Positions 9,830 to 30,302 of a stretch of DNA of 64,000 nucleotides are shown in pieces. This stretch comes from Anabaena sp. FACHB-1237 (GTDB lineage Bacteria; Cyanobacteriota; Cyanobacteriia; Cyanobacteriales; Nostocaceae), in contig NZ_JACJPV010000013.1 in NCBI RefSeq assembly GCF_014696225.1, positions 1 to 64,000 of the forward strand, in the 5' to 3' direction. Made by a program: the position numbers and the translations under genes. The notes below the pieces were generated by a model that was not told where the DNA came from, made no database searches, and saw only the letters and a list, made by a program, of their open reading frames with translations. The first letter of the stretch is position 1, and every line of letters starts with the position of its first letter.

Positions 9830-12800
9830 ATGGTTACATCACAATACACACCCTCCAGAAGAGAAACTATTTTAGCTGATATTCGTTCTCAAACCTCTAT
9901 TTTATTAGGTTTCGATGATCCATCGGATCTGGATATTAATACTTCCTTGCTAGAAATGGGTGCTGATTCTATTGCTATGATGGAAGCGGTAGCTAAAATT
10001 AAAAAGACCTATGGTGTTCCCATTGCTATTAGACAGTTTTTTGAAGACCTAACAAATATTGATGCCTTAGCAACATATATAGATAATAATATTCCCCAAA
10101 AATCAGAATTAAACTTTCCACAACCGATACAACCTATTCAAGAAGTACAAAAAGTACCAGAAATATCTACACCACAACCAATATATCAACAACCACCACA
10201 AGCAAATCAAGAGGTCAGAATATCAACCAGTCAGGAGAATTATATTGTACCCAATCACCAATTACCAATCACCAATTACCAATCACCAATTACACCAGTT
10301 TATGAAACTCAAGACGCAGTGGGAGATTCAGTTTTAGAAAAAATCATGCGCCAACAACTGCAAATTATGTCTCAGCAGTTGGAAATATTCAGAGGTTATG
10401 AATCTCAACCAGTTACTCAACAGCAAGTAATTGCGCCAACTCCCATACAACAAACATCAATACCGCCAACTCCTATTCAACAAACACCAATACAACAAAC
10501 TAACTCCCAACCCACAACCAAAAAACCAGCAGCGAAAACAACCATTGCTGGACCTTCAGAACTGCGGAAACCGAAAACTGGAGGACTGACAGCACAACAA
10601 AAGCAGCATATTCTCGAACTGACAGAAACCTACACAAAAAAGACTGCCACCTCCAAAAAACTCGCACAAAAGTATCGTCCTGTATTAGCTGATAGTCGAG
10701 CATCCGTAGGATTTCGTCCATCAGTCAAGGAAATGTTATATCCCCTTGTCGCTGAACGTTCTGAAGGAGCAAGAGTTTGGGACGTTGACGGTAATGAATA
10801 TCTGGATTTAACAATGGGACAGGGTGTGTTATTATTCGGACATCAACCCGATTTTATTATGGATGCCATTAAAGAACAACTAGAGTTAGGTATCCAATTA
10901 CACCCTCGTTATCATTTAGCCGGTGAAGTTGCGGAACTGATTAAAGAGTTAACAGGTGTAGAAAGGGTATGTTTTTCTAACTCTGGAACAGAAGCAGTAA
11001 TTACCTCTCTACGCATTGCTAGGGCGGGTACTGGCAAAACTAAAATAGTCATGTTTGAAGGTGCATATCATGGACATGGAGACTATACATTAGTTAGAAG
11101 AGAAGTAGAAGATGGCATAGCCAAAACTGTAGCTTTTGCATCTGGTGTACCTGCCAGCGTGGCTGAGGATATGGTAGTTTTAGATTATGATAGTCCTGAA
11201 AGTTTAGCATATATAGAAGCTAATGCCCATGAATTAGCAGCGGTTTTAGTTGAACCTGTACAAAGTAATAGACTTTCACTACAACCAAAAGAATTTCTTA
11301 TCAAATTAAGAGAAGTCACAGAAAGATGTGGAGTAGCTTTAGTATTTGATGAAGTAACCACAGGTTTCCGCTTCCATCCTGGTGGCGCACAGGCATGGTT
11401 AGGTATTCAAGCGGATATTGTCAACTATGGCAAAGTTATGGGTGGTGGAATGCCCATAGGTGTAATTGCTGGTAAAGCCAAGTTTCTGGATGCAGTGGAT
11501 GGGGGAATGTGGAATTATGGTGATAATTCCTTCCCAGAAGTAGAAAGAACCTTTTTCGGTGGTACATTTTGTATGCACCCCTTAGCGATGGTTTCGACAA
11601 AAGCTGTATTGCAAAAATTAAAAGATGAAGGACTAGCATTACAGGAAAGACTGCATCAAAAAACCAAATATTTAGCCACAACATTAAACAATTATTTTGT
11701 GGAAAATGATATTCCCATTGAAGTGGAATATTTCAGTTCTATTTTCAGATTCTCCTTTACCCAAAATCTTGATCCCTTCTTTTATCATTTGATTAATAAA
11801 GGTTTGTATGTGTGGGAATGGCGGAAATATTTCCTATCTACCGCCCATACTGATGCTGACATTGAATTTATCATTAAGGTGGTAAAAGAAACTATTGAAG
11901 AAATGAAAGCAGGGGGTTTTTTTTTAACATCCACAACAACTAGTAATGGTGGTAAAAAGGTAGAAATTCAGGAGTTAAAAAATCCAGAAGATGAAATCAA
12001 AAGTAATCAAAATAAAGGATTTTGGGTAAAACGTAGTGTCCATAAAACTCCTGAAATTACCATTATTCCCAGAAAACCTCACAAATTAGAATTTAGTCTG
12101 TTCTATTTTGGCAACTATAATTCTGAATTTAATCCAGATAAATATAGCTTGTTATTTTCTGGGGCAAAATTTGCTGATGAACATGGATTTTCTGCTGTAT
12201 GGTTACCAGAAAGACATTTTCATGATTTTGGTGGTTTTTCTCCTAACCCTTCCGTTTTAAGTGCAGCTTTAGCTAGGGAAACTAAACAGGTAAAATTGCG
12301 TGCAGGTAGCGTAGTTTTACCTTTACATCATCCCATTAGAGTAGCAGAAGAATGGTCAGTAATAGATAATTTATCTCAGGGAAGAGTGGGTATTGCCTTT
12401 GCTTCCGGTTGGCATGAAAATGATTTTGTATTTGCCCCAGATGCTTTTGGTAAACATCGAGAGTTAATGTTTACTAATATTGAAAAAGTGCAAAAACTCT
12501 GGCATGGTGAAAAAATTACCGTAAAAAATGGCACTGGCAATGATGTGGAATTAGGCATTTACCCTCAACCCATGCAATCAGAATTACCTATCTGGATTAC
12601 CATAGTAAATAATCCTGATACCTATATCCGTGCTGGAGAAATTGGGGCAGGAATATTAACTAATTTGATGGGGCAAAAAATTGAAGATTTAGCGCGGAAT
12701 ATTCAATTATATCGCCAAGCATTGTTAGATAATGGTCATGATATTAATTCTGGTCATGTAACAGTTTTATTACATACATTAGTTGGGGAAGATTTAGAAA

Positions 12801-30302: not shown

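What the first reader, a model, noticed from the sequence alone, without database searches (positions are those of the whole stretch)
9830..30302. Compact orphan NRPS/PKS cluster, T0-AMT-Ox-C-A(MT)-T | KS-AT-KR-ACP | C-A-T-C-A-T-TE, with no loading enzyme in the window
Three co-directional megasynthase genes appear to act in gene order. The first ends in a basic tail. The PKS ends in an acidic Asp/Glu-rich helix (DDMDKISDMLDMLDELSEQEIKSLL). The last NRPS begins with a ~40-aa helical N-terminal segment. These look like matched docking pairs. The first gene opens with a free-standing carrier domain, followed by a class-III aminotransferase and a luciferase-like monooxygenase. That AMT+Ox pair is what cyanobacterial lipopeptide pathways with 3-amino-2-hydroxy acids (microginin- or puwainaphycin-type) are thought to use. 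Here it has no KS/AT/ACP upstream of it, and no FAAL gene anywhere in the 64 kb. The only KS sits downstream of a complete NRPS module and is paired with a KR. The predicted skeleton is therefore a modified starter, one unusual (O-)methylated residue, one malonate-derived beta-hydroxy unit and two amino acids, released by the TE. I cannot place this in any cyanobacterial compound family I know. The cluster is small (20.5 kb) and sits between ycf65 and recN, so it is chromosomal rather than a large accessory island.
Basis: partly seen in the sequence, partly recalled or inferred. Interest (0 to 1): 0.78.

Follow-up and report, generated by a model that had tools for sequence, protein, structure and literature searches.

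The report
Anabaenolysin-type lipopeptide gene cluster variant
This is not an orphan pathway but a copy of the anabaenolysin (abl) lipopeptide gene cluster already described in Baltic Anabaena, here in Anabaena sp. FACHB-1237, with one amino-acid-selecting domain swapped (glycine to a serine-type signature) and the cluster's fatty-acid desaturase missing.

Summary
Gene 1 is ACP-aminotransferase-luciferase-like monooxygenase-C-A(FkbM methyltransferase insert)-T. Then come KS-AT-KR-ACP and C-A-T-C-A-T-TE, and all catalytic motifs are intact.

The cluster is not orphan. The window is from Anabaena sp. FACHB-1237. Gene 1 is 73% identical, with the same domains, to AblA of Anabaena XPORK13A/XSPORK2A. 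The PKS is 94% identical, and the last NRPS 82% identical with the same fused architecture, to the proteins of the anabaenolysin producer XPORK15F. recN follows the cluster in all of them.

The predicted building blocks match anabaenolysin: a 3-amino-2-hydroxy fatty acid, Asp plus malonate giving the AOFHA lactone, two small amino acids, and TE cyclisation. The missing fatty-acid-activating enzyme and the N-terminal ACP are published features of abl.

Four things are particular to this copy:
- The A-domain core of the module after the PKS is replaced by a Ser-type one (DVWHISLIDK).
- There is no in-cluster desaturase.
- There is an extra secreted ORFan.
- The SLH-GHL10 neighbour is deleted.

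How the first ACP gets a 3-oxoacyl chain without a KS remains unresolved.

The parts
9830..17212 (+). ablA-like hybrid NRPS gene (2460 aa): ACP(T0)-AMT-LLM monooxygenase-C-A(Asp code, FkbM MT insert)-T
   Evidence: Pfam; NCBIfam. 73% identity over the full length to XPORK13A AblA-type NRPS ALT22105.1, whose 90% cluster also holds XSPORK2A ALT22123.1. Stachelhaus code DLTKIGHVG- (the K517 position was lost across the methyltransferase insert in the alignment; an intact A10 NGK is present); same code in UHCC 0204 and L018.
9866..10105 (+). T0: N-terminal carrier domain (Ser in LEMGADSI)
   Evidence: PF00550/PF23297 aa 13-92; motif. Aligns to the ACP that follows KS-AT in MicA and PuwE.
10739..11818 (+). 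class-III aminotransferase domain
   Evidence: PF00202 aa 304-663, E 1.5e-52
12092..13114 (+). FMN-dependent luciferase-like monooxygenase domain (MupA/Atu3671 family)
   Evidence: TIGR04020 aa 755-1095, 514.6 bits against a cut-off of 244; PF00296
16007..16570 (+). FkbM-family methyltransferase inserted in the A domain between A8 and A10
   Evidence: PF05050 aa 2060-2247. A8 at aa 1955 and A10 at aa 2325. The insert corresponds to the gap in the MicA alignment, aa 2002-2289.
   Evidence: Signal-peptide-like N-terminus and AAGGAG upstream. Close homologues occur only in closely related abl-like clusters. The whole family has 12 representatives, and distant members carry PEP-CTERM. No Pfam or NCBIfam match and no fold match.
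18300..22937 (+). ablB-like type I PKS (1545 aa): KS-AT(malonyl)-KR-ACP, acidic C-terminal tail
   Evidence: Pfam; motifs. 94% identity to XPORK15F PKS ALT22086.1; 71% to UHCC 0253/0204.
23001..30302 (+). fused ablD/E-like NRPS (2433 aa): dock-C-A(Ser-type)-T-C-A(Gly)-T-TE
   Evidence: Pfam. 82% identity at 100% coverage to XPORK15F NRPS ALT22083.1, which has the same fusion. Codes DVWHISLIDK and DILQLGLIWK.
24798..25955 (+). replaced A-domain core of module 3 (aa ~600-985)
   Evidence: Identity to XPORK15F falls to 34-65% here, against 82-98% elsewhere. A metagenomic abl-like NRPS (P0148) is 92-96% identical in this stretch. The best non-abl matches are ~66% identical and all carry DVWHISLIDK.
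9366..9439 (-). 74-bp remnant of the 5' end of the SLH-GHL10 gene that lies upstream of abl in relatives
   Evidence: Homology to the Logan relatives L020 and L022 (91% nt) starts at window 9366, which is 74 bp inside their SLH-GHL10 gene. tblastn with the UHCC 0204 GHL10 protein finds nothing in the window.
30372..32099 (+). recN, conserved downstream neighbour of abl clusters (context, not part of the pathway)
   Evidence: Pfam. Same 90% cluster as XPORK15F RecN ALT22082.1. recN follows AblE in UHCC 0253 and 0204.

Best explanation
The locus is a member of the anabaenolysin (abl) hybrid NRPS/PKS cluster family, in Anabaena sp. FACHB-1237.

Proposed assembly, with the status of each step:
1. 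A long-chain acyl group in its 3-oxo form is placed on the N-terminal ACP of AblA by enzymes not encoded here. This is inferred, and the route is unknown.
2. The aminotransferase domain makes the 3-amino group and the luciferase-like monooxygenase the 2-hydroxyl. This is inferred from the homologous MicA/PuwE domains and from the 3-amino-2-hydroxy fatty acid in anabaenolysins.
3. The C domain joins this acid to Asp, which the AblA A domain activates. The Asp code is shown; the review PMC10088813 states Asp.
4. The FkbM methyltransferase probably methyl-esterifies the Asp side-chain carboxyl. This is my inference.
5. The PKS adds one malonate and reduces the ketone. The malonyl-type AT and the intact KR are shown.
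6. The new hydroxyl closes on the Asp side chain to give the gamma-lactone unit AOFHA. This is inferred from the product structure. The origin of the AOFHA 2-hydroxyl is unassigned.
7. The last NRPS adds two small amino acids and the TE cyclises onto the beta-amino group.

In this copy the first of those two modules carries a Ser-type specificity signature instead of Gly, and the in-cluster fatty-acid desaturase of the reference clusters is absent. The predicted product is therefore an anabaenolysin analogue (Ser for one Gly), possibly with a differently unsaturated tail.
For: Source and orthology:
- The window proteins are those of Anabaena sp. FACHB-1237.
- AblA is 73% identical to ALT22105 (XPORK13A), which clusters at 90% with ALT22123 (XSPORK2A), and has the same seven domains.
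- The PKS is 94% identical to XPORK15F ALT22086.
- The NRPS is 82% identical to XPORK15F ALT22083, with the same fused C-A-T-C-A-T-TE order.
- recN follows the cluster in XPORK15F, UHCC 0253 and UHCC 0204.
- UHCC 0204 and UHCC 0253 are reported carriers of the anabaenolysin cluster (PMC7232259). The abl records KP761741 and KP761742 and the AblD accessions are listed in the supplement of PMC8097286.

Chemistry:
- Anabaenolysin A is Gly, Gly, AOFHA and 3-amino-2-hydroxyoctadecapentaenoic acid (PMC3400675). This matches AMT+Ox, Asp+malonate+KR, two small-residue modules and a TE.
- Specificity codes are Asp (DLTKIGHVG-) in AblA, Ser-type DVWHISLIDK and Gly DILQLGLIWK in the last NRPS. Both XPORK15F modules and the UHCC AblD and AblE read Gly.
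- The review PMC10088813 states that abl encodes no fatty-acid-activating enzyme and that AblA starts with an ACP and activates Asp.

Integrity:
- All catalytic motifs are intact.
- No terminator-like site lies between the four genes; the gaps are 99, 136 and 63 bp.

A-domain swap:
- Identity falls locally to 34-65% against XPORK15F, while a metagenomic abl-like NRPS stays at 92-96%.
- Recombination in the same module (AblD) is published for anabaenolysin A versus C (PMC8097286).
Against: - No chemistry is available for FACHB-1237, and no paper in the held library links the strain to anabaenolysins.
- The primary paper on the cluster (Shishido et al. 2015) could not be read. Its biosynthetic model is known here only through reviews.
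- The reference clusters carry a fatty-acid desaturase between the PKS and the NRPS. It is missing here, and tblastn finds no desaturase in the 64 kb.
- No KS precedes the aminotransferase, so the source of its keto substrate is unexplained.
- The role proposed for the methyltransferase is untested. The known products carry no methyl group.
- Stachelhaus codes are predictions. The GrsA reference segment was written from memory, although it reproduces DAWTIAAICK with the correct numbering.
Confidence: 0.88

Rival explanations
1. A truly orphan, uncharacterised hybrid cluster making a compound of a new family.
For: No FAAL or KS precedes the AMT-Ox pair. An ORFan gene lies inside the cluster.
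Against: Identity to the proteins of published anabaenolysin clusters is 73-94%, with identical domain order and the same recN neighbour. The missing loader is itself a published property of abl.
Confidence: 0.02
2. A decaying, non-producing abl remnant. The cluster has lost its desaturase, its SLH-GHL10 neighbour and any loader, and no longer makes a product.
For: A 74-bp scar of the upstream SLH-GHL10 gene remains. Only 63 bp lie where relatives have a desaturase. There is a transposase fragment next to the ORFan in relatives L025-L027.
Against: Three very long ORFs (2460, 1545 and 2433 aa) are uninterrupted and keep every catalytic motif. The same desaturase-less arrangement recurs at 91% nucleotide identity in independent sequencing runs (L020 and L021). 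The loader is also absent from the clusters of confirmed producers.
Confidence: 0.08
3. The cluster makes ordinary anabaenolysins (Gly-Gly) despite the Ser-type signature, or the Ser-type variant is simply the already described anabaenolysin C.
For: Codes are predictions. A variant changed in one of the glycines is mentioned in PMC3400675. Anabaenolysin C differs at the AblD module.
Against: DVWHISLIDK differs from the Gly code at 7 of 10 positions. It is the signature shared by every close non-abl relative of this A core. The residue in anabaenolysin C could not be retrieved, so the second half of this rival stays open.
Confidence: 0.3

Closest known systems
Anabaenolysin (abl) biosynthetic gene clusters of Anabaena sp. 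XPORK15F, XSPORK2A (= UHCC 0253 by identical protein sequence) and XPORK13A (abl records KP761742 for XSPORK2A and KP761741 for XPORK13A, attributed to Shishido et al. 2015 in the supplement of PMC8097286)
   Same: AblA has the same architecture, including the N-terminal ACP and the FkbM insert, at 73% identity. The PKS is KS-AT-KR-ACP (94% to XPORK15F, 71% to XSPORK2A). The final modules and TE are fused as in XPORK15F, at 82% identity. recN lies downstream. No fatty-acid-activating enzyme is present. The Asp code and the second Gly code match.
   Different: The module after the PKS has a Ser-type A core instead of Gly. There is no desaturase between the PKS and the NRPS (a 316-aa AblC-position gene in XSPORK2A, XPORK13A and UHCC 0204). 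An extra secreted 283-aa ORF lies between ablA and the PKS. The upstream SLH-GHL10 gene is deleted and a DUF1400 gene sits there instead.
MicA (microginin, Planktothrix) and PuwE (puwainaphycin, Cylindrospermum): KS-AT-ACP-AMT-Ox-C-A-T initiation proteins
   Same: AblA aa 7-2001 and 2290-2420 align collinearly with MicA 917-3112 and PuwE 944-3049 at 47-49% identity. Both have the AMT plus luciferase-like monooxygenase pair associated with 3-amino-2-hydroxy fatty acids.
   Different: AblA has no KS-AT in front of the ACP and no FAAL or ACP genes nearby. It has a ~290-aa FkbM methyltransferase inserted in the A domain.
More distant abl-like clusters in metagenome assemblies (L018/L019; Cyanothece sp. 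SIO2G6 MAG, L003)
   Same: They share the ACP-AMT-Ox-C-A(FkbM)-T gene (60-63% identity). In L018/L019 it is followed by KS-AT-KR-ACP and an NRPS; L003 ends inside this first gene, so nothing downstream is seen there.
   Different: They do encode loaders. L018/L019 have FAAL-acyl-CoA-dehydrogenase-ACP plus KS-AT-DH-KR-ACP directly upstream. L003 has FAAL, two desaturases, a free ACP and a PKS in a divergent operon.
Amicoumacin-type 4-amino-2,3-dihydroxy-adipate/AOFHA units
   Same: The same AOFHA lactone occurs in amicoumacin C (stated in PMC3400675). By analogy it is an amino acid extended by one PKS module (my own knowledge).
   Different: The genes are unrelated and the organisms differ. No comparison was run here.

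Membership tests
Anabaenolysin (abl) gene cluster | First gene ACP-AMT-luciferase-like monooxygenase-C-A(FkbM MT)-T with an Asp-specific A domain | tested here: met
   Pfam and NCBIfam. The same precomputed domains are recorded for UHCC 0253 and UHCC 0204 AblA. 73% identity. Code DLTKIGHVG-. Asp is stated in PMC10088813.
Anabaenolysin (abl) gene cluster | Single PKS module KS-AT-KR-ACP after AblA | tested here: met
   94% identity to XPORK15F ALT22086.
Anabaenolysin (abl) gene cluster | Two Gly-activating modules and a terminal TE | tested here: not met
   The C-A-T-C-A-T-TE architecture is present, at 82% identity to XPORK15F. However, the first A domain reads DVWHISLIDK (Ser type) and only the second reads Gly. 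Natural variation at this module is published for anabaenolysin C.
Anabaenolysin (abl) gene cluster | Fatty-acid desaturase gene inside the cluster (between the PKS and the NRPS in XSPORK2A, XPORK13A and UHCC 0204) | tested here: not met
   The gap between the PKS and the NRPS is 63 bp. tblastn with three desaturases finds nothing in the 64 kb. The gene is present in L001/L023/L024 and L025.
Anabaenolysin (abl) gene cluster | No fatty-acid-activating enzyme in the cluster; the chain starts on the ACP of AblA | tested here: met
   literature statement.
Anabaenolysin (abl) gene cluster | Chromosomal position next to recN | tested here: met
Anabaenolysin (abl) gene cluster | Strain produces anabaenolysins (cyclic Gly-Gly-AOFHA-hydroxyamino fatty acid) | not testable with these tools
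   Needs LC-MS/MS of FACHB-1237. No report was found.
MicA/PuwE-type beta-amino fatty acid initiation (FAAL, ACP, KS-AT-ACP-AMT-Ox) | KS-AT fused or adjacent upstream of the ACP-AMT, giving the 3-oxoacyl substrate | tested here: not met
   AblA begins at the ACP. There is no KS similarity upstream of 9830. AblA-type proteins of UHCC 0204, XPORK13A, L018 and the L020/L025 relatives start at the same point, and L003 also starts at the ACP.
MicA/PuwE-type beta-amino fatty acid initiation (FAAL, ACP, KS-AT-ACP-AMT-Ox) | FAAL gene in the cluster | tested here: not met
MicA/PuwE-type beta-amino fatty acid initiation (FAAL, ACP, KS-AT-ACP-AMT-Ox) | Class-III aminotransferase followed by a MupA/Atu3671-type luciferase-like monooxygenase on the assembly line | tested here: met
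Interrupted adenylation domains (methyltransferase embedded between A8 and A9/A10) | MT domain inserted between core motifs A8 and A10 of an otherwise complete A domain | tested here: met
   A8 at aa 1955, FkbM at aa 2060-2247, A10 at aa 2325. A VFDVGCNIG SAM-binding-like motif is visible in the sequence.

The most novel reading that the evidence does not exclude
The abl-type AblA proteins form a conserved KS-less way of making a 3-amino-2-hydroxy fatty acid starter. On this reading the N-terminal ACP receives a 3-oxoacyl chain directly from primary fatty-acid synthesis, or through in-trans, twice-used action of the only KS-AT in the cluster. In addition, the FkbM domain would use transient methyl-esterification of Asp to drive lactone (AOFHA) formation. 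This FACHB-1237 copy would then be a natural minimal version making a new Ser-containing, less unsaturated anabaenolysin. It has no desaturase and no loader, and its neighbouring SLH-GHL10 gene is deleted.
Probability: 0.3. Interest if true: 0.6.

Novelty: new member of a known kind. Interest (0 to 1): 0.3.

Why it matters
- It extends the anabaenolysin cluster family to Anabaena sp. FACHB-1237 and to metagenomic assemblies (L020-L022, L025-L027). The only published carriers found here are Baltic Sea benthic Anabaena (subgroup ADA-epsilon in PMC7232259).
- It predicts a congener with Ser in place of one Gly. This is a natural A-core swap in a module already known to diversify by recombination.
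- The set of variants gives comparative handles on three open points of anabaenolysin biosynthesis: who loads the first ACP, what the desaturase does, and what the embedded FkbM domain is for. The variants differ in whether they have a desaturase, the secreted ORFan, or FAAL/PKS loaders.
- None of this changes the category. The cluster belongs to a characterised compound family.

Tried and rejected
- The 283-aa ORF was tested as a divergent desaturase and rejected. BLASTP against the UHCC 0204 desaturase gives E = 42.
- Hidden loaders in the window were searched for by tblastn with FAALs, desaturases, the GHL10 protein and an upstream PKS of relatives. Only the known A, KS and ACP domains were hit.
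- A pseudogenised KS upstream of 9830 was considered and rejected. There is no similarity, and the N-terminus is conserved in orthologues.
- The primary paper (Shishido et al. 2015, PNAS) could not be read by DOI or by PMC id. The residue changed in anabaenolysin C could not be found in reviews or in the supplement of PMC8097286.
- The first pairwise-alignment code for module 3 (DVWHISCIDK) was an alignment offset. The MAFFT-based code is DVWHISLIDK.
- Promoter and terminator scans gave nothing above chance.
- The rest of the FACHB-1237 genome could not be searched.
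Full report
**Observation**

The window holds four co-directional genes between 9830 and 30302.

- Gene 1 (9830-17212, 2460 aa) has, by Pfam: PP-binding, class-III aminotransferase, luciferase-like monooxygenase, condensation, AMP-binding, FkbM-type methyltransferase (Methyltransf_21), AMP-binding_C and PP-binding.
- The PKS (18300-22937, 1545 aa) is KS-AT-KR-ACP.
- The last NRPS (23001-30302, 2433 aa) is C-A-T-C-A-T-TE.

NCBIfam places the monooxygenase in the MupA/Atu3671 family well above its cut-off.

All catalytic motifs are present. These are the carrier serines, three HHxxxDG, the KS Cys-His-His, AT GHSIGE with HAFH (malonyl type), the KR tyrosine and TE GHSFG. The methyltransferase lies between A8 and A10.

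It has a good ribosome-binding site and a signal-peptide-like N-terminus.

ycf65 is confirmed but is separated from the cluster by a DUF1400 hydrolase gene. recN follows directly.

No FAAL, desaturase, stand-alone AT or KS is present anywhere in the 64 kb.

**Identification**

Exact look-ups show that the proteins are those of Anabaena sp. FACHB-1237.

The PKS shares a 90% cluster with the PKS of Anabaena sp. XPORK15F and is 94% identical to it. XPORK15F is the strain from which anabaenolysin A was isolated (PMC3400675).

Gene 1 is 73% identical over its whole length to the NRPS ALT22105 of XPORK13A. That protein clusters with ALT22123 of XSPORK2A, a sequence shared with UHCC 0253, and with the UHCC 0204 protein.

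The last NRPS is 82% identical at full coverage to XPORK15F ALT22083, which has the same fused C-A-T-C-A-T-TE architecture.

In UHCC 0253 and UHCC 0204 the gene order is AblA, PKS, a 316-aa fatty-acid desaturase, C-A-T, dock-C-A-T-TE, then recN. Both strains are reported carriers of the anabaenolysin cluster (PMC7232259).

The abl accessions (KP761741, KP761742) and the name AblD for the C-A-T protein are given in the supplement of PMC8097286.

**Fit to the chemistry**

Anabaenolysin A consists of Gly, Gly, AOFHA (2-(3-amino-5-oxotetrahydrofuran-2-yl)-2-hydroxyacetic acid) and 3-amino-2-hydroxyoctadeca-5,7,9,13,15-pentaenoic acid.

- The AMT+Ox pair accounts for the 3-amino-2-hydroxy head of the fatty acid.
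- The AblA A domain has an Asp code, DLTKIGHVG-, identical in UHCC 0204 and in a 63% relative. A review states that AblA activates Asp (PMC10088813).
- Asp extended by one malonate and reduced by the KR gives a hydroxyl that can lactonise on the Asp side chain, producing AOFHA. This step is my inference.
- Two small-residue modules and the TE complete the ring.

The same review says that abl encodes no fatty-acid-activating enzyme and that the chain is expected to start on the ACP of AblA.

**Relation to MicA and PuwE**

AblA residues 7-2001 and 2290-2420 align collinearly with MicA 917-2982 and 2982-3112, and with PuwE 944-3049, at 47-49% identity. AblA is therefore a MicA/PuwE-type protein that lacks the N-terminal KS-AT and has gained a ~290-residue FkbM insert.

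The KS-less start is conserved in every abl-like relative found, down to about 60% identity. This argues for a working architecture rather than a truncation.

More distant relatives do carry loaders.
- L018/L019 have FAAL-acyl-CoA-dehydrogenase-ACP and KS-AT-DH-KR-ACP directly upstream.
- A Cyanothece MAG (L003) has FAAL, two desaturases, a free ACP and a PKS in a divergent operon.

Even there, no KS sits immediately before the aminotransferase. How the 3-oxo substrate arises therefore stays open. The possibilities I see are capture of 3-oxoacyl-ACP from fatty-acid synthesis, unlinked FAAL/KS genes, or double use of the AblB KS-AT. None could be tested here.

**What is particular to this copy**

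1. Specificity codes from a MAFFT alignment to a GrsA segment were computed. The control reproduces DAWTIAAICK. Module 3 gives DVWHISLIDK (Ser type) and module 4 gives DILQLGLIWK (Gly). Both XPORK15F modules and the UHCC AblD and AblE read Gly.
   - Identity to XPORK15F is 82-98% along the NRPS but drops to 34-65% over residues ~600-985. A metagenomic abl-like NRPS (P0148) is 92-96% identical in that stretch and has the same code.
   - The nearest non-abl relatives of this core (~66% identity) all carry DVWHISLIDK.
   - This is an A-core replacement. Recombination in the same module distinguishes anabaenolysin A and C producers (PMC8097286). A variant changed in one glycine was already mentioned in 2012.
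   - I could not retrieve which residue anabaenolysin C carries.
2. The desaturase is absent. Only 63 bp separate the PKS and the NRPS. The same is true of Logan assemblies that are 91% identical at the nucleotide level (L020 and L021). An 84%-identical lineage (L025) has both the ORFan and a 306-aa desaturase.
3. The 283-aa ORF occurs only in this sub-lineage. In L025-L027 it sits next to a transposase fragment.
   - Its family has 12 representatives in 1.8 billion proteins. Distant members carry a His-rich tail and a PEP-CTERM signal.
   - A confident model (pLDDT 80.7) matches no solved fold.
   - A secreted protein is unlikely to act on the assembly line. Its role is unknown.
4. Homology to the Logan relatives begins at window 9366, which is 74 bp inside their upstream SLH-GHL10 gene. 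That gene, also present in UHCC 0204, has been deleted here.

**Expression**

The intergenic gaps are 99, 136, 63 and 69 bp. No terminator-like hairpin lies in them, and a terminator-like site follows recN. This is compatible with co-transcription but is not evidence for it.

**Verdict**

The biosynthetic reading is largely right, but the 'orphan, unplaceable' interpretation is not.

The locus is a new member of the known anabaenolysin cluster family. Its predicted product is a Ser-for-Gly analogue, possibly with an altered tail. The unresolved points are the loading of the first ACP, the role of the FkbM domain, the source of the AOFHA 2-hydroxyl and the role of the desaturase. These are open questions for the published family as a whole, not discoveries of this window.

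Noticed in passing
window 17312-18163: A secreted 283-aa ORFan sits inside the cluster. It belongs to a very small family (12 representatives at 50% identity in 1.8 billion proteins). Invariant residues include W177, H178, H180, N187 and E226. Distant members end in a His-rich stretch plus a PEP-CTERM signal. The AF2 model has pLDDT 80.7 but matches no solved fold.
   Followed up: yes
window 9366-9439: A 74-bp scar of the 5' end of an SLH-GHL10 (glycosyl hydrolase-like 10) gene lies here. In UHCC 0204 and in the Logan relatives that gene is divergent and immediately upstream of ablA. It may be the cyclodextrin-associated neighbour (camA) mentioned in reviews, but that identity was not verified.
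   Followed up: partly
L018/L019 332-9927; L003 1-9010: Distant abl-like clusters carry dedicated loaders. L018/L019 encode a 1313-aa FAAL-acyl-CoA dehydrogenase-ACP fusion and a KS-AT-DH-KR-ACP module. The Cyanothece SIO2G6 MAG (L003) encodes FAAL, two desaturases, a free ACP and a PKS. These are candidates for what is missing or unlinked in Anabaena.
   Followed up: partly
L025 10438-10641 (also L026, L027): A DDE transposase fragment lies between the ORFan and the PKS in the 84%-identical metagenomic abl-like clusters. This suggests the ORFan arrived with a mobile element. The fragment is absent from the window.
   Followed up: no
window 10110-10600 (AblA aa ~95-260): A long Pro/Gln-rich, partly repetitive linker (for example IAPTPIQQTSIPPTPIQQTPIQQT) lies between the first ACP and the aminotransferase. 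This region aligns poorly even with close relatives: the blastn hits to UHCC 0204 leave a gap at 10090-10559.
   Followed up: no
window 45479-51576: A co-directional set of genes lies outside the finding. It comprises a pyridine nucleotide-disulphide oxidoreductase, a 206-aa unknown, an asparagine-synthase-like protein (576 aa), an Orn/DAP decarboxylase-like protein (415 aa) and a 434-aa unknown. It could be a small amino-acid-modifying pathway.
   Followed up: no
P0176, P0229, P0244 (Nostoc NRPSs): Other cyanobacterial NRPSs also carry an FkbM (PF05050) domain. In P0176 and P0229 a Ser-type A domain (DVWHISLID-) aligns without its K517 position, as the interrupted AblA A domain does. FkbM inserts in A domains may therefore be more widespread than the abl family.
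   Followed up: no
clusters 2 and 3: Short contigs annotated as Cylindrospermopsis raciborskii (MCZ2207873.1, MCZ2207953.1) hold fragments at least 90% identical to the metagenomic abl-like AblA and NRPS. This indicates either contamination or an abl-like cluster in that assembly.
   Followed up: no
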